Source: an uncultured Candidatus Saccharibacteria bacterium
Lineage (GTDB): Bacteria; Patescibacteriota; Doudnabacteria; UBA920
Assembly (NCBI GenBank): GCA_964504715.1
Contig: CAZDEP010000006.1
Span: 4,748 to 68,747 of the forward strand
DNA: 64,000 nucleotides
Direction of reading: 5' to 3'
The notes under the pieces were generated by a model. The model worked only from the letters and a program-made list of their open reading frames with translations. It did not search any database and had not been told where the DNA came from. Every line of letters begins with the position of its first letter. Within the stretch, counting starts at the first letter, position 1. Shown one piece after another: positions 13,535 through 29,034 of the stretch. The translations under genes were made by a program, and so were the position numbers.

Positions 13535-13950
13535 GCTCTAAGCAAGCTCATAAGCCGAATTCTGTTTCTTCCGCCAAAGGCGGATCGCCGAAATTAAATA
13601 AATAATCTTGGCGAAATAATCATCTCTCTGCCCATTCGATTGCTCGGAAGGGTCAAGCAGCCTACCAAATTTGGCCTTGCACTCAAGTAAGGATTTAGCC
13701 GTTTCACCCGCGATATTTCTATCACGGCTCACCCTATGCCGTATATCTTCCTTTTCGGGAAAATTCGGGTATAGGGTGTCTTTAGCCTTTCGGCCAAAGA
13801 CGTTTCTGTTCGCACCTCGAGGATTACTCCAGACGGGCGTTACCCGCTACTAATTTTGAAAACTCTATAGAGGTTCTCAAAGGAGTGTTCGGACTTTCCT
13901 CCCAGCCCTTTGAATAGAGCTGGGCGATTATTCGACTTGCTTAGAGCCAG
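13535..13950 (-). ncRNA. rnpB: RNase P RNA (bacterial type A)
   Basis: The minus-strand read has a P1 pairing (gctctaagcaag ... cttgcttagagc) and a P3 hairpin. The universally conserved P4 strands are present: GGAGGAAAGTCCGAAC at the 5' end and ACAGAATTCGGCTTA at the 3' end. It also carries GGGTAACGCC, GTGCGAACAGAAAC, AGGGTGAAACGGC and TGCAAGGCCAAAT. Confidence 0.8.
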
Positions 13951-23708: not shown

Positions 23709-24020
23709 GTGAACATCAACATCAAAGCTACTAAAACAACTCTCACACCTTCCATAAAACAGTTTGTGGAAGATAAAATCCAGTCATTGGAGACTTTTAT
23801 AAAGTCGGAAGACAAAATTCGTGTTGAACTGGAAGTCGACAAAAAACACAGTTCGGGCAAAATCTACCGAGCGGAAGTTGATATTCAGCCGCACGGGCAC
23901 TATGCCGAGGCTTTTGCTGAAGATTTTTATGCCGCGTTTGATTTGGTAATGCCCAAAATAAAAGAACAGCTGGCAAAGCAAAAAGACAAGCGCGTTTCCC
24001 TTAGGCGCCGCGGTCGCTAG
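23709..24020 (+). CDS. hpf: Ribosome hibernation promoting factor / RaiA (S30AE family)
   Basis: HYAEAFAEDFYAAFDLVMPKIKEQL signature; GTG start. Confidence 0.85.
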   Translation: MNINIKATKTTLTPSIKQFVEDKIQSLETFIKSEDKIRVELEVDKKHSSGKIYRAEVDIQPHGHYAEAFAEDFYAAFDLVMPKIKEQLAKQKDKRVSLRRRGR

Positions 24021-24086
24021 CCCCTCAAACCTTTTGCACTACTGTACCTGCCTGCCCTGCCTACCGGCAGGCAGGCGGTAGGCAGG

Positions 24087-24195
24087 CTAGTGCCGTTTCA
24101 TTTTAATTATGTCGATTGTCAGATTTTCAAACTCCTCTAAAATAAATTAATTTAAGGGATATTGGCCGTCAGGTTTAAAATGAAACGGCACTAGT
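24087..24195. terminator. 20-bp perfect inverted repeat (ctagtgccgtttcattttaa / ttaaaatgaaacggcactag) flanking a 69-bp AT-rich loop
   Basis: Long stem-loop at the 3' end of the minus-strand trpR-like gene. Confidence 0.45.
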
Positions 24196-24209
24196 ACACT
24201 AAAACAGTC

Positions 24210-24494
24210 TTATTTGTAAAATTTTTCCAAAACCAGGCGGAAACCACCTTTTTTGTTTGCCAATTCGCGGGCGCCGCGATTAACGGTCGCCACACTCACC
24301 TTGAGCTGTGTGGCAATTTCGCGATGTGGGACCGCGGCCTGGAGCCTCTTGATGATTTGCCAGCGGACGGCCAGTTCGCGGTATTCGGCGGGTGACAGTA
24401 TATCAAATAAAAATTCCCTCATCAGAGCCTTGTCTTTGCCAATTTTGCCCACCAATCCTTCTAGTTCTGCCCCATATTCGTGTTTATATTGCAT
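24210..24494 (-). CDS. TrpR/YerC/YecD-family transcriptional regulator
   Basis: Trp-repressor-like helix-turn-helix (HREIATQLKVSVATVNRGARELANK); about 94 aa. Confidence 0.7.
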   Translation of the reverse strand: MQYKHEYGAELEGLVGKIGKDKALMREFLFDILSPAEYRELAVRWQIIKRLQAAVPHREIATQLKVSVATVNRGARELANKKGGFRLVLEKFYK

Positions 24495-24510
24495 ATTTTT
24501 TCTTTTGCTT

Positions 24511-24528
24511 TAGTGTACTAGTACACTA
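24511..24528. promoter_or_regulatory. 18-bp perfect palindrome tagtgtactagtacacta (trp-operator-like ACTAGT core) over the regulator's own promoter
   Basis: Lies 17-34 nt upstream of the regulator's start codon and overlaps a minus-strand TTGACG -35 / TAGTGT -10. Confidence 0.6.
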
Positions 24529-24594
24529 GAACATGCGGATCTTCGCGTCAACTGTGGATAATTAGATCTATTTTTTGCAATTTGGATGTTTCAG

Positions 24595-24606
24595 CGTACT
24601 AGTACG
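24595..24606. promoter_or_regulatory. 12-bp palindrome cgtactagtacg abutting a TTGACA -35 box on the + strand
   Basis: cgtactagtacg ggtg TTGACA, 17 nt, then TATGTT. Confidence 0.5.
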
Positions 24607-24941
24607 GTGTTGACAATGGGACGCAGAGAGAGTATGTTTTATTCATATGGAAAATTTGGTGGCTAAAAACAATATTGCAGTTTGGTGGGGTTTGCAGACT
24701 TTCGCAAAGCCCGGTGTTTTTAGCTGACTTTTTCAGTCTCCCGATAGTTGCTTTTAACCACCTTTTGGCTTTTTGCGAAAGGTGGTTTTGTTTTGGCTGT
24801 TTTTAACATCTCGATCAAATTTGCGTATTAGCCTGCCTGCTGGCAGGTATGCTAATGCAAATGGATGTTGTTGGCAGCCAGCACAAATCCACATGGCAGG
24901 ATAAACAAGCGTGCTGGCTTGCCTGCAAAGAAGGAGGTGCG

Positions 24942-25169
24942 ATGTACTACATCGCGCAGCAGCCGTCGCCAGTGGCGACCGCAAGACTTAAAAACGCTGG
25001 GTATGGGCGGGAAGGGGGCGAACTGGCGGCTCATCAGGTTAGCGGGAATTCTGTAACCGTGACCTTCGTTGAAACGGGTTTTTTTGGCGGCTTAACCCGT
25101 CATACAATGTCTGGCGAAGAATTTAAGCGCAACTTCGCCGTTATCCGCAACAAGAGGGCCAAACGCTAA
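24942..25169 (+). CDS. Hypothetical small protein (75 aa), higher GC than surroundings
   Basis: Strong RBS AAGGAGGTG 5 nt before the ATG at 24942; it is the internal start of track ORF 24849..25169. A near-perfect GC hairpin follows the stop. Confidence 0.35.
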   Translation: MYYIAQQPSPVATARLKNAGYGREGGELAAHQVSGNSVTVTFVETGFFGGLTRHTMSGEEFKRNFAVIRNKRAKR

Positions 25170-25212
25170 AAGCGTTTCGGCCCTCTTTCCACATCAGCAT
25201 GCACGTTTTAAC

Positions 25213-25222
25213 GTACTAGTAC
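25213..25222. promoter_or_regulatory. Third GTACTAGTAC palindrome at the right edge of the island
   Basis: acgtactagtac immediately followed by the right terminal inverted repeat. Confidence 0.45.
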
Positions 25223-25695
25223 AGTAGTGCAAAAGGCGCGGGGGTGGGGAGGGTTATGGGTATATTTACCCTTTTTAGTTTACTTGGAGCATGTAGGGAG
25301 GGTTTGTGCCCAGTTGGGTGCTTTATAGTTACTGCTTGAGAGAATGTAATTTATTGAGTTTTTAGGCTCGATAAATCGAGCGACTACAAGATCATTGGAA
25401 ATTGAAATTATAATTATAATGTTGATTGCTATTGACAGCATTGGTCGGGCTGGTATAATACAGTAAGTATGAATAAATTATCGCAAAATTTCTGGTATTT
25501 CTTTTATTTTTTTACTGGCCTGCTTGGAACCAGGAATTTTGAGTTTAATCCACAGATACACATATTGCACAGATAACACTGAACAAAGGATTCAACGTAA
25601 AACTCCCGGCTTCAAGCGAAGCCGGTTTTTTGTTTACCAATACAATATAATAGCAAACAATCCGCCGAAGCGTCTGGCGTAGGCGGGTGTTATTT

Positions 25696-25771
25696 GGGGA
25701 CGTAGTTTAGTTGGTTAGAACGCCGGCCTAAAAAACCGGAAAGGCAGGTTCGAATCCTGTTGTCCCCGCCA
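25696..25771 (+). tRNA. tRNA, isotype unresolved (anticodon loop CUAAAAA; apparent anticodon AAA)
   Basis: Cloverleaf: acceptor GGGGACG pairs with TGTCCCC (one G-U pair), D-arm with GG, T-arm GCAGG-TTCGAAT-CCTGT, encoded CCA, short variable loop. The anticodon stem has a C-A mismatch and the loop is A-rich. Confidence 0.55.
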
Positions 25772-25808
25772 AAATACCCCCGCTTAGCGGGGGGAGAAGG
25801 AGGGGCTT

Positions 25809-25937
25809 ATGGAATGCCCTAATTGTAAAAAAAAGCTCATCGAAAAAGGGGATCGGGCCCTGTGTCCGAAGTGCCCTTTTCGAAGAGAAAAAAAATTGGT
25901 TGCTAACTGGCAACCGAAACTACAGGAAAAAAAGTGA
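25809..25937 (+). CDS. Small zinc-ribbon protein (42 aa)
   Basis: MECPNCKKKLIEKGDRALCPKCPFRREKK... with two CPxC pairs; strong RBS AGAAGGAGGGG 6 nt upstream. A perfect hairpin ccccccgcttagcgggggg lies between the tRNA and this ORF. Confidence 0.4.
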   Translation: MECPNCKKKLIEKGDRALCPKCPFRREKKLVANWQPKLQEKK

Positions 25938-26077
25938 TGGGATTTGCCATTTGGCGCAAGGAATTTGGATCTCTATCTTTCGGTAGTTCTCGATAAACTC
26001 GAACACTACTCACGAACACGGAGAGCATTTTCCTAGCCCCAAAAGGCCAAGCTTTGTTATCCAGGAAAGGAGGCGGT

Positions 26078-26146
26078 ATGTACGAACCGTACCGTAACCC
26101 CGAGGTAGAACGGGGCGCAATACTATTCTACCGGCCGGAAACTTAA
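26078..26146 (+). CDS. 22-codon upstream ORF with a consensus RBS, overlapping a terminator hairpin (possible leader peptide)
   Basis: AAGGAGG 6 nt before the ATG. The stop codon sits inside the hairpin ccggaaacttaatgtttccgg, which is followed by a T-run. Confidence 0.25.
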   Translation: MYEPYRNPEVERGAILFYRPET

Positions 26147-26170
26147 TGTTTCCGGCTCTTTTCTTTTTAA
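26135..26170 (+). terminator. Rho-independent terminator/attenuator in the secA leader
   Basis: ccggaaac-ttaatg-tttccgg plus ctcttttcttttt. Confidence 0.5.
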
Positions 26171-26271
26171 CCTGAATTAGGTATAATTTATTGGCATTTA
26201 TTATTTAAGGGATCCCCTCACTCATCCTCGGATGCACTCGGATTCAAGGCCTGGGATGACAACAAAAGCTA

Positions 26272-29034
26272 ATGTCTTTTTTATCCAAACTATTCGGCGG
26301 TGAATCGCCCGCTATCGACAAATACCAAAAAGAACTTGACGCGGTCAATGTTTTTAAAAGTGAAGTTGAGAAATTGACACAGGAAAAAATTCAAGAAGAA
26401 GTAGCAAGTATCAAGGGTCAAGTATCAAGCTTAAAGACAAAAGAAGAAATAAAAAACAAGTTGAAAGAAGTTAGGCCACGCGTGTTTGCTTTAGTCAGGG
26501 AAGCGGCCAAAAGAACCATAGGCCAGACGCATTATGACGTGCAAATTGTCGGCGGCCTGGCTTTGTCGGACAACCGCATAGCGGAAATGAAGACCGGCGA
26601 AGGCAAAACACTCACTGCCACGCTGCCTTTAGTCTTGTATGCTTTGGCAGGCAAGGGCGCGCATTTGGTAACCGTCAACGACTATTTAGGCCGGTGGCAA
26701 GCCTCCCTTATGGGCCCGATTTTCCATTACTTGGGCTTAACTGTTTCTTCCATCCAGCATGAAGCTTCTTTTTTATATGATCCCACTTACCAACCCGAGG
26801 CGGAAGAACTCGAAAAGCTGGAAGGCCAGACCGAAGGTTTGGTAATGGATGTAAAGCACATGAGGCCGATTGCGAGAAAAGAGGCCTATGCTTCCGACAT
26901 AACTTACGGCACCAACAACGAATTCGGTTTTGATTATTTGCGGGACAATATGGCCCAGCGGGCCCAAAGCATGGTCCAAAGGCCTTTGTTTTTTGCCATT
27001 GTCGACGAAGTTGACTCAATTTTAATTGACGAAGCCAGGACGCCGCTTATAATTAGCGCGCCCGATACAGACCCGACTGACAAGTACGTGCAGTTTGCAA
27101 AGCTGGTTGGTCAGCTAAACGAAGGCGAGCACTATTCCGTAGACGAAAAACACAAAGCCGCGAGTTTGACCGATTCCGGCATTAACAAAATTGAAGAAAT
27201 TTTGCGCGTGCCCAATATTTACGACACGAGCAAGGGCGTGACCACCATCCACCACATAGAGCAGGCTTTGCGTGCCAAAACTTTGTTTAAAATTGACCGC
27301 GACTACGTAACGCGCAACGGGGAAATAGTGATTGTGGACGAATTCACCGGCAGGCTCATGTTTGGCCGGAGGTATTCCGAAGGCCTTCACCAGGCCATAG
27401 AAGCCAAGGAGGGAGTAAAAATCCAAGCCGAAAGCAAAACTCTTGCCACTATTACTTTTCAAAATTTGTTTCGCCTTTACGATTTTTTGTCCGGTATGAC
27501 AGGTACGGCTAAAACCGAAGAGGAAGAATTTTTCAAAATTTACCGCCTGCAGGTGGAAATTATCCCCACTAACCGGCCGATGGTAAGGAACGATGCGGCC
27601 GATGTGGTCTATAAAACCGAAAAAGCAAAATTTGAAGCCATTGCCAAAGAAGTCGCACTTAGGCATAAAAAAGGCCAGCCGATTTTGATTGGCACGGTCA
27701 GCATTGCCAAGAACGAACTTTTGGCCGATGAACTTAAAAAACAGGGCTTAAGTTTTGAGCTTTTAAATGCCAAAAACCACGAACGTGAAGCGCATATTAT
27801 TGCCCAGGCAGGACGGCTTGGAGCCATTACTTTGGCTACCAACATAGCCGGTCGCGGCGTGGACATTCTTTTGGGCGGAAATCCCATTGACCAGGAGGAA
27901 GCCAAAGCTGTGCGTGAGGCAGGCGGCCTGCACGTTTTGGGGACCGAGCGGCATGAATCTCGTAGGATCGACAACCAGCTTAGGGGCCGCGCAGGACGCC
28001 AGGGCGACCCGGGTTCTTCGCAGTTTTTCGTTTCCATGGAAGACGACCTCATGAGGCTTTTCGGCGGCGAACGGATGAAATCCCTCATGACGACTTTAGG
28101 CATACCCGACGACCAGCCCATAGAAGCCAAAATGGTTTCCCGCTCCATTGAATCGGCGCAAAAAAAGATTGAAGGCCTAAATTTTGACACCCGCAAGCAC
28201 GTCTTGGAATTCGACGATGTATTAAACCATCAACGCAATATTATTTATAAAATTCGCAGGCGCTATTTGCCCGGCTATGAACCGAAAGTGGACGAAGCCG
28301 GCCAACCGTTTGACCTTAAAAAAGAAATTTTGGAAATTGCGCGTGAGGAAGTAAGTAATTTGGTATTGAGTATACTTAATGCCGAAGTTCCGTCCGAAAA
28401 TAAGGCTTCCCAGGTTGACGAAGTAATTAAAGCGCTTGGGTCAATTTTTACAGTCCCCGAAGAGCTTAAAAGTAAAATTAAGGACGAATTTCCAAACGCC
28501 GCGGACAGGGAATTTGCCATAACGGATGCAACTCTGGTGGAACTGGAAAAATTCTGGGATGCAAAGGCGCAAGAATTCACGAAAGAAGGCTTTGAAAGCG
28601 TGGCACAGTATATAGCACTTCAAAATTTGGACGCCTTATGGATGGAGCACTTGGATACCATGGACCATCTGCGCGACAGCGTAAGGCTTCGCGGCTACGG
28701 TCAAAGGGACCCGTTGGTGGAATACAAAAAGGAAGGCTTTGGCATGTTCCAGAGGCTGGTGAAGGAAATAAACCGGCAAATAGTCTTTACAATTTTCAAA
28801 GTTAATATTCAAGTTAATCCAAATGTCCCTGCTCAGGAAGTCCAAATGGTGACAAATAGGACAGATACGACAAATACGTCGAATAGGACCAATGAGAATG
28901 TCGGCCGCAACGATCCCTGCCCATGCGGCAGCGGGAAAAAGTGGAAGAAATGCGGAATGCAAAATACCCAGGAACACCAAATAAATATGGCCAAAGGCAC
29001 CAGTCAAAAGCATGCGGCCAAGGTGGGAGGGTAG
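26272..29034 (+). CDS. secA: Preprotein translocase ATPase SecA
   Basis: DEAD-like motor motifs (MKTGEGKTLTATLP, TVNDYL), helical scaffold, and C-terminal SEC-C zinc finger CPCGSGKKWKKCG. Confidence 0.95.
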   Translation: MSFLSKLFGGESPAIDKYQKELDAVNVFKSEVEKLTQEKIQEEVASIKGQVSSLKTKEEIKNKLKEVRPRVFALVREAAKRTIGQTHYDVQIVGGLALSDNRIAEMKTGEGKTLTATLPLVLYALAGKGAHLVTVNDYLGRWQASLMGPIFHYLGLTVSSIQHEASFLYDPTYQPEAEELEKLEGQTEGLVMDVKHMRPIARKEAYASDITYGTNNEFGFDYLRDNMAQRAQSMVQRPLFFAIVDEVDSILIDEARTPLIISAPDTDPTDKYVQFAKLVGQLNEGEHYSVDEKHKAASLTDSGINKIEEILRVPNIYDTSKGVTTIHHIEQALRAKTLFKIDRDYVTRNGEIVIVDEFTGRLMFGRRYSEGLHQAIEAKEGVKIQAESKTLATITFQNLFRLYDFLSGMTGTAKTEEEEFFKIYRLQVEIIPTNRPMVRNDAADVVYKTEKAKFEAIAKEVALRHKKGQPILIGTVSIAKNELLADELKKQGLSFELLNAKNHEREAHIIAQAGRLGAITLATNIAGRGVDILLGGNPIDQEEAKAVREAGGLHVLGTERHESRRIDNQLRGRAGRQGDPGSSQFFVSMEDDLMRLFGGERMKSLMTTLGIPDDQPIEAKMVSRSIESAQKKIEGLNFDTRKHVLEFDDVLNHQRNIIYKIRRRYLPGYEPKVDEAGQPFDLKKEILEIAREEVSNLVLSILNAEVPSENKASQVDEVIKALGSIFTVPEELKSKIKDEFPNAADREFAITDATLVELEKFWDAKAQEFTKEGFESVAQYIALQNLDALWMEHLDTMDHLRDSVRLRGYGQRDPLVEYKKEGFGMFQRLVKEINRQIVFTIFKVNIQVNPNVPAQEVQMVTNRTDTTNTSNRTNENVGRNDPCPCGSGKKWKKCGMQNTQEHQINMAKGTSQKHAAKVGG
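26395..26430 (+). repeat. In-frame 7-bp periodic CAAGTAT repeat inside secA (encodes EEVASIKGQVSSLK)
   Basis: gaagtag CAAGtat CAAGggt CAAGtat CAAGc; a near-identical DNA segment occurs in pepN at 31513-31554. Confidence 0.6.
28843..28895 (+). repeat. In-frame 9-bp periodic ACAAATAGG-type repeat inside secA, just before the zinc finger (encodes QMVTNRTDTTNTSNRTNEN)
   Basis: caaatggtg acaaatagg acagatacg acaaatacg tcgaatagg accaatgag. It nearly matches the left arm of intergenic locus A (acaaatac acgaatacc accaatat). Confidence 0.65.

What the first reader, a model, noticed from the sequence alone, without database searches (positions are those of the whole stretch)
25696..25771. tRNA with an A-rich anticodon loop (CUAAAAA) and apparent AAA anticodon, at the edge of the island
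The cloverleaf is otherwise canonical, as listed under the tRNA feature. The anticodon arm is the exception. It reads CCGGC-CUAAAAA-ACCGG, with a C-A mismatch at 31:39 and an apparent anticodon of AAA. That would correspond to Phe, which bacteria decode with GAA, and the discriminator base is G rather than the A73 typical of tRNA-Phe. A one-base register shift would give UAA, but the variable arm is too short for a tRNA-Leu.

This could be a degenerate or pseudo tRNA used as an integration target (it abuts the island above). It could be a tRNA-like regulatory element, or a real non-standard decoder.
Basis: seen in the sequence. Interest (0 to 1): 0.5.

Follow-up and report, generated by a model that had tools for sequence, protein, structure and literature searches.

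The report
Attenuator-linked tRNA with AAA anticodon
This is a real, structurally conserved transfer RNA gene with the almost-never-used anticodon AAA, in an uncultured Doudnabacteria (CPR) genome; it sits directly behind a switch that appears to sense slow reading of phenylalanine codons, so it may be a starvation-induced extra reader of UUU rather than a dead gene or an integration site.

Summary
Positions 25696-25771(+) encode a 76-nt cloverleaf tRNA: Rfam 62 bits, encoded CCA, U33, A37, G73, 4-nt variable loop, C31·A39 mismatch and anticodon AAA.

- **Not a sequencing error.** Two other assemblies carry it base for base, and one of them is a diverged strain.
- **Not at an island edge.** The upstream glycosyltransferase/mur block is syntenic in relatives, and there is no integrase or att duplicate.
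- **Not a mutated tRNA-Phe.** The body resembles Trp/Asp-type tRNAs.

New context: the gene lies about 65 nt downstream of a conserved leader-peptide attenuator. That unit comprises a TrpR-type operator, a perfect promoter, a leaderless ORF (MNKLSQNFWYFFYFF...), a covarying antiterminator and a terminator.

A sister species has a homologous gene at the same spot. All its stem substitutions preserve pairing, but its anticodon arm is 28 nt longer and ends in an A-rich loop. Three related lineages keep the attenuator but lack the tRNA.

Best reading (about 0.4): an accessory, attenuator-controlled UUU reader whose charging identity is unknown. Rivals are a non-decoding tRNA-like RNA (about 0.3) and a decaying relic (about 0.2). 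I could not test expression, charging or the rest of the genome's tRNA set.

The parts
25213..25222 (.). TrpR-type operator-like palindrome GTACTAGTAC upstream of the leader promoter. It is one of four such sites, all within 24188-25222.
   Evidence: 4 matches at up to 1 mismatch against 0.30 expected. The same motif lies directly upstream of the homologous promoter in L082 (9140), L104 (1177) and L109 (5). A Trp_repressor-family gene lies at 24210-24494(-).
25432..25459 (+). Sigma-70 promoter TTGACA-16-TATAAT with a TG extension. It is the only promoter-like site in 25000-26400.
   Evidence: 12 of 12 consensus matches. The -35/-10 elements are conserved in L082, L085, L104 and L109.
25469..25576 (+). 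Leader ORF MNKLSQNFWYFFYFFTGLLGTRNFEFNPQIHILHR. The eight codons 25490-25513 (FWYFFYFF) are all aromatic. The ATG lies 10 nt after the -10 hexamer with no Shine-Dalgarno sequence, so the mRNA is probably leaderless.
   Evidence: ORF list. Five homologous variants all keep the aromatic run.
25485..25540 (+). Hairpin 1:2, AAAAUUUCUGG (25485-25495) pairing with CCAGGAAUUUU (25530-25540). The aromatic codons lie in and next to its 5' arm and loop.
   Evidence: 93% of cells are paired across 4 species, and the register controls collapse when slid.
25514..25626 (+). Antiterminator: 25514-25550 pairs with 25586-25626, consuming both arms of the terminator.
   Evidence: It is the MFE of the window sequence. 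The RNAalifold consensus of 4 species has 30 pairs, 11 of them with changes on both sides.
25606..25631 (+). Intrinsic terminator CCGGCUUC-AAGC-GAAGCCGG followed by U6.
   Evidence: Terminator scan. Each homologous locus has its own hairpin plus U-run at this place.
25696..25771 (+). The tRNA gene: anticodon AAA at 25730-25732, C31·A39 at 25727/25735, G73 at 25768, CCA at 25769-25771.
   Evidence: It is identical in L081 and L094. A homologous tRNA-like gene lies at L104:1421-1524.
25777..25793 (+). GC hairpin CCCCCGC-UUA-GCGGGGG between the tRNA 3' end and the ribosome-binding site of the next ORF. No U-run follows it on the + strand.
   Evidence: A similar hairpin precedes the Zn-ribbon ORF in L109, which has no tRNA.
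25809..25937 (+). 42-aa CxxC...CxxC zinc-ribbon mini-protein with a strong GGAGG ribosome-binding site. It is the downstream cistron of the same unit.
   Evidence: There is no Pfam family. It is homologous to the L109 ORF, 60% over 20 aa, pairwise E=6e-8.
26133..26170 (+). Terminator (10-bp stem followed by CTTTTCTTTT) that closes the unit ahead of the secA promoter.
   Evidence: CTCTTTTCTTTTT is conserved in L082, L104 and L109.

Best explanation
The feature is a genuine accessory tRNA gene with anticodon AAA, maintained by selection, in a Candidatus Doudnabacteria (Patescibacteria) chromosome.

It is the first product downstream of a ribosome-mediated transcription attenuator. The elements, in order:
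- a TrpR-type operator
- a strong promoter
- a probably leaderless leader ORF with a run of eight aromatic codons, mostly UUU/UUC
- mutually exclusive 1:2, antiterminator and terminator hairpins

Proposed mechanism:
1. When ribosomes stall on the Phe (and Tyr/Trp) codons of the leader, the antiterminator forms.
2. Transcription then reads through into the tRNA and the zinc-ribbon mini-ORF.
3. RNase P and 3' trimming release the 76-nt tRNA; CCA is already encoded.
4. With A34 it pairs by Watson-Crick with UUU, the genome's main Phe codon.

The result would be an inducible, UUU-specific supplementary decoder that feeds back on the very codons that control it.

Shown:
- the gene, its canonical geometry and its reproducibility
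- its non-Phe body
- the attenuator architecture and its covariation
- the conserved position of a homologous gene in a second species

Inferred:
- co-transcription with the leader
- translation of the leader
- participation in decoding

Unknown: which amino acid it carries, if any, and whether A34 is deaminated.
For: **Canonical tRNA**
- Rfam scores it 62.1 bits, equal to the neighbouring tRNA-Thr.
- It has a 7-nt loop with U33 and A37, and an encoded CCA.

**Reproducibility**
- It is identical in three assemblies, including a strain whose flanks differ by 6% or more.

**Selection on the fold**
- The homologue at the same position in the P0003 lineage (SecA 76% identical) differs at 5 stem positions. 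All of them keep pairing, including G29-C41 to A29-U41.
- The probability of this under neutral substitution is 0.001-0.013 for kappa 1-4.
- The tRNA halves align at 78-89%, whereas the adjacent trpR-like gene region aligns at 66%.

**Attenuator**
- It has a perfect promoter and a terminator.
- Five leader variants all carry an aromatic-rich run: 8 consecutive aromatic residues in the window, 6-7 per 8-9 residues in the other four.
- The antiterminator has 30 pairs, 11 of them compensatory, and the 1:2 helix is 93% paired.

**Co-transcription**
- No other promoter-like site occurs in 25000-26400.
- In L104 only 30 nt separate the terminator from the tRNA-like gene.

**Codon usage and decoding**
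- UUU is 77% of Phe codons and 41 per 1000 codons.
- UUU still means Phe: TTT and TTC codons of secA align to Phe equally often, 0.78 and 0.74.
- Published work shows that unmodified AAA anticodons read UUU and not UUC (PMC11066159).
- A natural A34 tRNA for a two-codon box, Streptomyces tRNA-Asp-AUC, is functional (PMC9262613).
Against: - The body is not Phe-like: G73, and identity to tRNA-Phe(GAA) of 0.58-0.61 against 0.70-0.74 for Trp/Asp. Charging by PheRS is therefore doubtful.
- The only homologue (L104-L106) has 28 extra nt in the anticodon arm. No possible excision restores U33, so it cannot decode as it stands.
- The gene is absent from three related lineages that keep the attenuator and the Zn-ribbon ORF: L082, L085 and L109. 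It is therefore dispensable.
- The TTT bias is the same (0.68-0.78) in relatives without the gene at this locus.
- tRNA-Phe(AAA) reduced fitness when overexpressed in E. coli, and two-codon-box ANN tRNAs occur only sporadically (bioRxiv 10.64898/2026.05.15.725136).
- There are no expression or charging data, and the rest of the genome (tRNA-Phe(GAA), TadA) could not be inspected.
Confidence: 0.4

Rival explanations
1. It is a non-decoding tRNA-like RNA. The acceptor, T and D domains are kept as a processing or stability module, or as a ligand. RNase P/RNase Z cuts could separate the attenuator leader from the downstream mini-ORF mRNA. Alternatively it could act as an uncharged, A-site or protein-binding tRNA mimic in the aromatic-amino-acid circuit. 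The anticodon arm is free to vary, and AAA has no coding role.
For: - The homologue in L104-L106 keeps the acceptor, D and T arms (Rfam tRNA 51.1 bits) but has a 37-nt segment where the model expects 9 nt.
- Its MFE is an elongated arm with the loop AAAAAUA.
- The body does not match the isotype that the anticodon implies.
- The gene is embedded in an mRNA-type operon with a Zn-ribbon ORF directly downstream.
- It is sporadically present or absent.
Against: - In the window lineage the anticodon arm has exactly canonical decoding geometry: a 5-bp stem, a 7-nt loop, U33 and A37. A mere processing signal would not need this.
- AAA matching the leader's dominant regulatory codon would be a coincidence.
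- No known tRNA-like family was hit.
Confidence: 0.3
2. It is a decaying or neutral relic: a duplicated or horizontally acquired Trp/Asp-type tRNA whose anticodon loop was scrambled to an A-run. It is tolerated because it is poorly expressed behind a terminator, and it is being lost.
For: - It is absent from most related lineages at the syntenic site.
- The only homologue is disrupted.
- It has a C31·A39 mismatch and a G15/G48 combination.
- Neither the exact 44-nt core (species representatives) nor the CCGGN-CUAAAAA-NCCGG arm with a T loop (metagenomes) turned up a related copy.
- The HPF-secA slot is hypervariable, holding toxin-antitoxin or aro genes in other genomes.
Against: - All five stem differences between the two lineages preserve pairing, P about 0.001-0.013.
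- The tRNA is better conserved than the flanking sequence.
- The Rfam score is as high as that of a bona fide tRNA, with all invariant positions and CCA intact.
- It is identical in strains whose neighbouring DNA has diverged.
Confidence: 0.2
3. It is a pseudo-tRNA or tRNA serving as the attachment site at the border of an integrated genomic island.
For: tRNA genes are common integration sites (general knowledge), and the HPF-secA interval differs between genomes.
Against: - The upstream GT/mur cluster is syntenic in L082, L085 and L086.
- Composition is flat.
- No integrase or recombinase appears among the annotated neighbours.
- No second copy of the tRNA 3' half exists at up to 3 mismatches.
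Confidence: 0.03
4. It is a sequencing or assembly artefact in the A6 homopolymer of an otherwise standard tRNA.
For: None beyond the presence of a homopolymer.
Against: - The sequence is the same in three assemblies from different runs, one of them a diverged strain.
- Adding or removing one A does not yield a standard anticodon loop (read from the sequence).
- The sister-species homologue also has a UAAAAA loop segment.
Confidence: 0.01

Closest known systems
Sporadic bacterial tRNAs with A34 in two-codon boxes, such as the tRNA-Phe(AAA) and tRNA-His(AUG) predictions in GtRNAdb (bioRxiv 10.64898/2026.05.15.725136)
   Same: It has an A-starting anticodon for a split codon box. Its occurrence is rare and lineage-specific. 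It is intact enough to be called by standard tools.
   Different: Those cases are treated as G34A derivatives of the cognate tRNA and always co-occur with the GNN tRNA. Here the body is not tRNA-Phe-like (G73, Trp/Asp-like), co-occurrence could not be checked, and the gene is wired behind an attenuator.
Streptomyces tRNA-Asp-AUC (Chen et al., NAR 2022, PMC9262613)
   Same: It is a natural accessory tRNA whose A34 gives Watson-Crick reading of the U-ending codon of a two-codon box, bypassing G·U wobble. Its distribution is accessory and strain-limited.
   Different: That tRNA has experimental proof of function, is reported as constitutively expressed, and is described by its authors as a tRNA-Asp. 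This one has no experimental data, has a body and anticodon that disagree, and is apparently conditionally transcribed.
Leader-peptide transcription attenuators: E. coli pheL-pheA, pheM-pheST and trpL. Leaderless short-ORF attenuators of mycobacteria are recalled from memory.
   Same: It has a short ORF with a run of regulatory codons. It has alternative 1:2, antiterminator and terminator hairpins, followed by a U-run. As in the E. coli trp operon, it is combined with a TrpR-type operator.
   Different: The controlled products are a tRNA and mini-ORFs rather than biosynthetic enzymes or a synthetase. The regulatory run mixes Phe, Tyr and Trp codons. The organism is a CPR bacterium. I know of no described attenuator that controls a tRNA gene, and one literature query found none.
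Intron-containing tRNA genes of Patescibacteria (group I introns at 35/36 in tRNA-Asn/Asp; PMC13011429)
   Same: The phylum is the same. The body is Asp/Asn-like (G73, D loop AGUUGGUUA). In the L104 homologue an insertion in the anticodon loop hides the gene from ARAGORN.
   Different: The L104 insertion is only 28 nt, has no group I intron signal, and cannot be excised to give a loop with U33. The window gene has no insertion at all.

Membership tests
Canonical elongator tRNA (Rfam RF00005) | Covariance-model score above the gathering threshold, with a full-length cloverleaf | tested here: met
   62.1 bits against 29, model positions 1-71 of 71. ARAGORN also calls it.
Canonical elongator tRNA (Rfam RF00005) | Invariant and semi-invariant nucleotides (U8, A14, G18G19, U33, R37, G53, U54U55C56, A58, C61) and a 3' CCA | tested here: met
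   All are present in the sequence. Exceptions are the C31·A39 mismatch and G at both 15 and 48.
Bacterial tRNA-Phe (PheRS substrate) | Anticodon G34-A35-A36 | tested here: not met
   The anticodon is A34-A35-A36, so only A35 and A36 are retained.
Bacterial tRNA-Phe (PheRS substrate) | Discriminator A73 and a tRNA-Phe-type body (GCUC/GAGC D stem, 5-nt variable loop) | tested here: not met
   It has G73, a GUUU/GAAC D stem and a 4-nt variable loop. Identity to E. coli and L057 tRNA-Phe(GAA) is 0.58-0.61, among the lowest of the type I tRNAs compared. The reference set was small (E. coli plus a few others); tRNAscan-SE isotype models were not available.
Two-codon-box ANN tRNAs derived from the cognate GNN tRNA | A34 in a split codon box | tested here: met
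   The AAA anticodon pairs with UUU in the Phe/Leu box.
Two-codon-box ANN tRNAs derived from the cognate GNN tRNA | Co-occurrence with the GNN isoacceptor in the same genome, and sequence derivation from it | not testable with these tools
   Only this 64-kb window and short contigs of the organism were reachable. The window holds only this tRNA and tRNA-Thr(CGU).
Leader-peptide transcription attenuator | A short ORF with clustered regulatory codons directly after a promoter | tested here: met
   The 35-aa ORF contains FWYFFYFF, and five homologous variants exist. The promoter matches 12 of 12 consensus positions.
Leader-peptide transcription attenuator | An intrinsic terminator and a mutually exclusive antiterminator overlapping it, conserved by covariation | tested here: met
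   Terminator. The antiterminator has 30 pairs, 11 compensatory, across 4 species. The 1:2 helix is 93% paired.
Leader-peptide transcription attenuator | Translation of the leader and a response of read-through to charged-tRNA supply | not testable with these tools
   There is no Shine-Dalgarno sequence, and the ATG lies 10 nt after the -10 hexamer, so leaderless initiation is inferred. Reporter or Term-seq experiments are needed.
tRNA gene as integrase attachment site at an island border | An adjacent integrase, a direct repeat of the tRNA 3' end, and strain-variable cargo | tested here: not met
   There is no repeat, no integrase domain among the neighbours, and the upstream block is syntenic in relatives.
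T-box riboswitch | Stem I specifier loop and T-box antiterminator bulge (Rfam model) | tested here: not met
   There is no T-box hit at E<=1 in 24000-26400. The UGGC that could pair with GCCA lies inside a helix and is not conserved in L082, L085 or L109.
Group I intron-containing Patescibacteria tRNA | A group I intron of 200 nt or more in the anticodon loop that splices to a canonical loop | tested here: not met
   The window gene has no insertion. The L104 insertion is 28 nt and gives no intron model hit.

The most novel reading that the evidence does not exclude
A tRNA gene is placed under a leader-peptide attenuator whose regulatory codons are the tRNA's own cognate codons. The result is a codon-decoding feedback loop in a genome-reduced CPR bacterium.

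Because the body is not tRNA-Phe-like, the induced tRNA may carry a non-Phe amino acid or stay uncharged. In that case it would act as a starvation-induced UUU reader that rescues or signals stalled ribosomes: regulated mistranslation, or a built-in 'uncharged tRNA' alarm.

The sister species' version, with its elongated A-rich arm, would then be a non-decoding derivative of the same regulatory RNA.
Probability: 0.3. Interest if true: 0.8.

Novelty: new variant of a known kind. Interest (0 to 1): 0.58.

Why it matters
tRNAs with unmodified A34 in split codon boxes are almost absent from life, and why that is so is an open question. A naturally retained AAA tRNA would therefore be a useful test case. 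This one is structurally conserved, has a body that disagrees with its anticodon, and appears to be switched on only when Phe codons are read slowly.

It bears on three topics:
- codon-specific tRNA supply control
- tolerated or regulated mistranslation
- how reduced CPR genomes sense amino-acid supply

It also reveals a pair of classic-looking TrpR-plus-attenuator units (Trp and Phe/aromatic) in Patescibacteria. These units control only tiny genes, which points to an undescribed aromatic-amino-acid signalling module.

Tried and rejected
- **Exact 44-nt search in GTDB genomes:** no match.
- **SecA-anchored loci from GTDB species representatives:** at most 53% identity and no synteny or tRNA. 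The organism has no close representative there.
- **Metagenome scan for the CCGGN-CUAAAAA-NCCGG arm plus T loop:** three unrelated oddities only.
- **Viral-contig scan for the T arm and acceptor:** nothing.
- **blastn against E. coli genomes:** no hit.
- **blastn against phages:** mixed Asp/Trp/Pro hits that are not decisive. A Vibrio phage 'tRNA-Phe' hit proved to be an odd 114-nt annotation.
- **Codon-usage link:** rejected as specific evidence, because TTT bias is the same in relatives lacking the gene.
- **UUU recoding:** rejected.
- **T-box-like sensing of this tRNA by the leader:** rejected.
- **Group I or archaeal bulge-helix-bulge intron in the L104 homologue:** rejected on size and geometry, and because no excision gives U33.
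- **att-site duplication:** rejected.
- **An own promoter for the tRNA:** only a lone TATAAT at 25646-25651 without a -35 element, and it was not picked up by the scan.
- **Homologues of the 75-aa and 68-aa small proteins:** the searches returned only the same species.
- **Parent isotype:** could not be identified, because no other Doudnabacteria tRNAs were reachable.

Full report
**1. The observation**

The sequence at 25696-25771(+) reads GGGGACGUAGUUUAGUUGGUUAGAACGCCGGCCUAAAAAACCGGAAAGGCAGGUUCGAAUCCUGUUGUCCCCGCCA. ARAGORN reports tRNA-Phe(aaa) at exactly these coordinates. The Rfam tRNA model gives 62.1 bits against a gathering score of 29, and the 31:39 pair is the only non-standard pair. 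The window's ordinary tRNA-Thr(CGU) scores 61.3 bits.

All the listed details are right:
- C31·A39
- loop CUAAAAA with U33 and A37
- G73
- a 4-nt variable loop
- an encoded CCA

A relaxed Rfam scan of 24000-26400 finds no other family.

**2. Organism and reproducibility**

SecA, immediately downstream, is at most 53% identical to GTDB species representatives. It is 70-76% identical to many metagenomic proteins, those that carry a name being labelled Candidatus Doudnabacteria or Patescibacteria.

Two independent Logan assemblies carry the locus:
- L094 (SRR12487046) is identical over 24166-26937.
- L081 (SRR14271345) is a mosaic strain. It is about 93.5% identical over 24166-25239, lacks 25239-25383, and is strongly divergent in 26075-26271.

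Both contain the tRNA base for base. A homopolymer error is therefore excluded.

**3. Not an island edge**

The upstream genes are a sugar transferase, three GT4 glycosyltransferases, MurG, patatin, MurC and MurB, followed by HPF. They occur in the same order in other Doudnabacteria (L082, L085, L086). Composition is flat. No copy of the tRNA 3' half exists elsewhere in the window, and no integrase domain was found.

What does vary between genomes is the short HPF-secA interval itself. It holds aromatic-amino-acid biosynthesis genes in L083/L084, a toxin-antitoxin pair in L087, and nothing in L086.

**4. What kind of tRNA**

The name 'Phe' comes only from the anticodon. I compared the tRNA with annotated E. 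coli tRNAs fetched here and with other tRNAs in session loci:

| Reference tRNA | Identity |
|---|---|
| Phage tRNA-Asp | 0.74 |
| Streptomyces-phage tRNA-Trp | 0.71 |
| E. coli tRNA-Trp | 0.70 |
| E. coli tRNA-Asp and tRNA-Arg | 0.67 |
| tRNA-Phe(GAA) | 0.58-0.61 |

A phage-database blastn gave the same picture. G73, the GUUU/GAAC D stem and the AGUUGGUUA D loop fit Asp/Trp types, not Phe. The reference set is small and distant, so the parent isotype is a lead rather than a result.

UUU is not recoded. TTT and TTC codons of secA align to Phe in 59 homologues equally often, 0.78 and 0.74. TTT makes up 77% of Phe codons, but the same bias (0.68-0.78) holds in relatives lacking the gene at this locus.

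**5.

Upstream of the tRNA lies a conserved regulatory unit:
- **Promoter.** A 12-of-12 sigma-70 promoter sits at 25432-25459, the only one found in 25000-26400.
- **Leader ORF.** Ten nucleotides after the -10 hexamer, without a Shine-Dalgarno sequence, starts a 35-codon ORF, MNKLSQNFWYFFYFFTGLLGTRNFEFNPQIHILHR.
- **Terminator.** It is followed by an intrinsic terminator at 25606-25631.

Homologous ORFs occur at the same place in four other lineages:

| Locus | Leader peptide |
|---|---|
| L082 | MNQLAQNFWFFFYFSF... |
| L085 | MAKLAQNFWFFFYFYF... |
| L104-L106 | MHKLTQNIGFFWFYF... |
| L109 | MNKIAQNFWTFFYFF... |

The aromatic run is kept while its order is permuted, as expected for regulatory codons.

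The window RNA's minimum-energy fold pairs 25514-25550 with 25586-25626, swallowing the terminator. RNAalifold on four species recovers the same antiterminator with 30 pairs, 11 of them showing compensatory double changes. A competing 1:2 helix (AAAAUUUCUGG with CCAGRAAUUUU) is 93% paired, and register-shift controls collapse. Every species has its own terminator hairpin plus U-run.

This is the anatomy of a classic ribosome-mediated attenuator. The promoter-proximal ATG suggests a leaderless leader ORF, which is an inference.

A GTACTAGTAC palindrome resembling the E. coli trp operator (recalled from memory) occurs four times in 24188-25222, against 0.3 expected. It lies directly upstream of the homologous promoter in L082, L104 and L109. 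A Trp_repressor-family gene is adjacent.

**6. A homologue in a sister species**

In L104, L105 and L106 (three samples; SecA P0003, 76% identical) the leader terminator is followed after only 30 nt by GGGGGCGUAGUUCAGUCGGUAGAACGCCAGC-[35 nt]-ACUGGAAGUCGCAGGUUCGAGCCCUGUCGUCCCCGCCA. ARAGORN misses it. Rfam scores it as tRNA at 51.1 bits, with a 37-nt insert where 9 nt are expected.

Outside the insert it is the same gene. Five stem positions differ, and every change preserves pairing:
- A5-U68 to G·U
- U13·G22 to C-G
- G29-C41 to A29-U41
- G7·U66 to G-C

The C31·A39 mismatch is kept. In simulation, five random stem substitutions all preserve pairing with probability 0.001-0.013 for kappa 1-4, and 0.09 if only transitions occur. 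The tRNA halves align at 78-89%, while the neighbouring trpR region aligns at 66%. The fold has therefore been under selection since the lineages split, which argues against a plain pseudogene.

The L104 anticodon arm, however, cannot decode as it stands:
- The MFE is an elongated arm ending in the loop AAAAAUA.
- ARAGORN's intron mode proposes an unconvincing 'tRNA-Ser(tga)' with A33.
- No 28-nt excision restores U33.
- The insert is far too short for the group I introns known in Patescibacteria tRNA-Asn/Asp genes (PMC13011429).

The shared UAAAAA segment suggests the A-run predates the split.

**7. Distribution**

SecA identities place P0003, P0004, P0013 and P0002 in one clade, 82-84% identical to each other, which is sister to the window lineage at 76%. 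The tRNA or tRNA-like gene is present in the window lineage and in P0003. It is absent in P0004 (L082), P0013 (L109) and P0005 (L085), even though the operator, promoter, leader and terminator are present in all three. A Zn-ribbon ORF follows them in L082 and L109, and the L109 ORF is homologous to the window's. A covariance-model scan confirms that no tRNA is hidden in those loci.

The pattern implies several losses, or transfer by recombination between relatives. Either way the gene is accessory.

**8. How it most likely works**

Stalling of ribosomes on the Phe/Tyr/Trp codons of the leader favours the antiterminator. Transcription then reads through into the tRNA and the mini-ORF. RNase P (its RNA is in the window) and 3' trimming release the tRNA. 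A34-A35-A36 pairs with UUU.

Published work provides the background:
- Unmodified AAA anticodons read UUU but not UUC in E. coli (PMC11066159).
- A genomic pheV G34A allele is functional, while overexpression reduces fitness (bioRxiv 10.64898/2026.05.15.725136).
- Two-codon-box ANN tRNAs occur sporadically, always together with the GNN tRNA.
- A natural tRNA-Asp-AUC works as a wobble-bypassing decoder in Streptomyces (PMC9262613).

I put 0.4 on an attenuator-controlled UUU reader, 0.3 on a non-decoding tRNA-like RNA, 0.2 on a relic, and very little on an integration site or an artefact. Which amino acid it carries, if any, is unknown. The non-Phe body leaves room for mischarging or no charging.

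**9. Novelty**

An AAA tRNA prediction as such belongs to a known, rare class. Three things are new here:
- the mismatch between body and anticodon
- evidence of structural selection across species
- placement behind a leader-peptide attenuator whose regulatory codons match the anticodon

One literature query found no described attenuator that controls a tRNA gene, but the search was not exhaustive.

**10. Limits**

- Only two variants of the gene are known.
- There are no expression or charging data.
- The remainder of the genome's tRNA set and TadA could not be examined.
- Isotype assignment rests on a small reference panel.

Noticed in passing
window 24596-25190 (promoter/operator 24596-24640, leader ORF 24647-24727, terminator ~24753-24795, ORF 24942-25169): This is a second, Trp-type attenuator unit. 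A TTGACA promoter is overlapped by the GTACTAGTAC operator. It is followed by a promoter-proximal ORF, MENLVAKNNIAVWWGLQTFAKPGVFS, with tandem Trp codons; the WW pair is conserved in L081, L082, L085, L095 and L104. Next comes a terminator hairpin, CCACC...GGTGG plus a U-run, and then a 75-aa protein with no Pfam family. The logic is that of the E. coli trp operon (TrpR plus trpL), but here it controls a tiny unknown protein.
   Followed up: partly
window 24210-24494 (-), and operators at 24188, 24515, 24596, 25213: A Trp_repressor-family gene (PF01371, E=2e-15) is surrounded by four GTACTAGTAC palindromes, against 0.3 expected. A perfect 18-bp inverted repeat (24030-24047 and 25219-25236) brackets the trpR, WW-leader and 75-aa unit.
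   Followed up: partly
window 25945-26075; also L082 ~9684, L104 ~1790, L109 ~512: A conserved non-coding block lies after the Zn-ribbon ORF: CCATTYGGSGCRAGGAAT, then a variable hairpin, then GAGAGCAYTTTCCTRGCC. It is followed by a variable mini-ORF and the terminator CTCTTTTCTTTTT. There is no Rfam hit, so it may be an undescribed structured RNA.
   Followed up: no
L104:1421-1524 (also L105, L106): This tRNA-like gene has 28 extra nt in the anticodon arm. Default ARAGORN does not see it, Rfam scores it at 51 bits, and ARAGORN -i calls it tRNA-Ser(tga) with a 14-nt intron and a long variable arm. CCAG/CUGG segments are duplicated inside the insert.
   Followed up: partly
window 13535-13943 (-): The RNase P RNA (bacterial class A) scores only 108 bits against a gathering score of 100, with a 34-nt insertion where the model expects 4 nt and a 34-nt model segment missing. 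It is a divergent CPR-type RNase P.
   Followed up: no
L083/L084 upstream of secA: In a sister Doudnabacteria lineage the same HPF-secA slot holds aromatic-amino-acid biosynthesis genes: DHQ synthase, chorismate synthase, prephenate dehydratase, prephenate dehydrogenase, chorismate mutase and an aminotransferase. The slot is thus tied to aromatic-amino-acid metabolism across the clade.
   Followed up: no
L090:782-860 (metagenome contig Ga0068858_100001188): An unrelated predicted tRNA with anticodon AAA and an odd D arm lies next to a tRNA-Asn in a soil or rhizosphere contig. It is another sporadic AAA tRNA prediction.
   Followed up: no
window-wide codon usage; L081-L087: TTT is strongly preferred over TTC (0.68-0.78) and ATT over ATC (about 0.7-0.78). 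In the window TAY, AAY, GAY and CAY are near 0.5 (0.35-0.65 across the related loci), and TGC is preferred over TGT. This pattern holds across all Doudnabacteria loci examined.
   Followed up: partly
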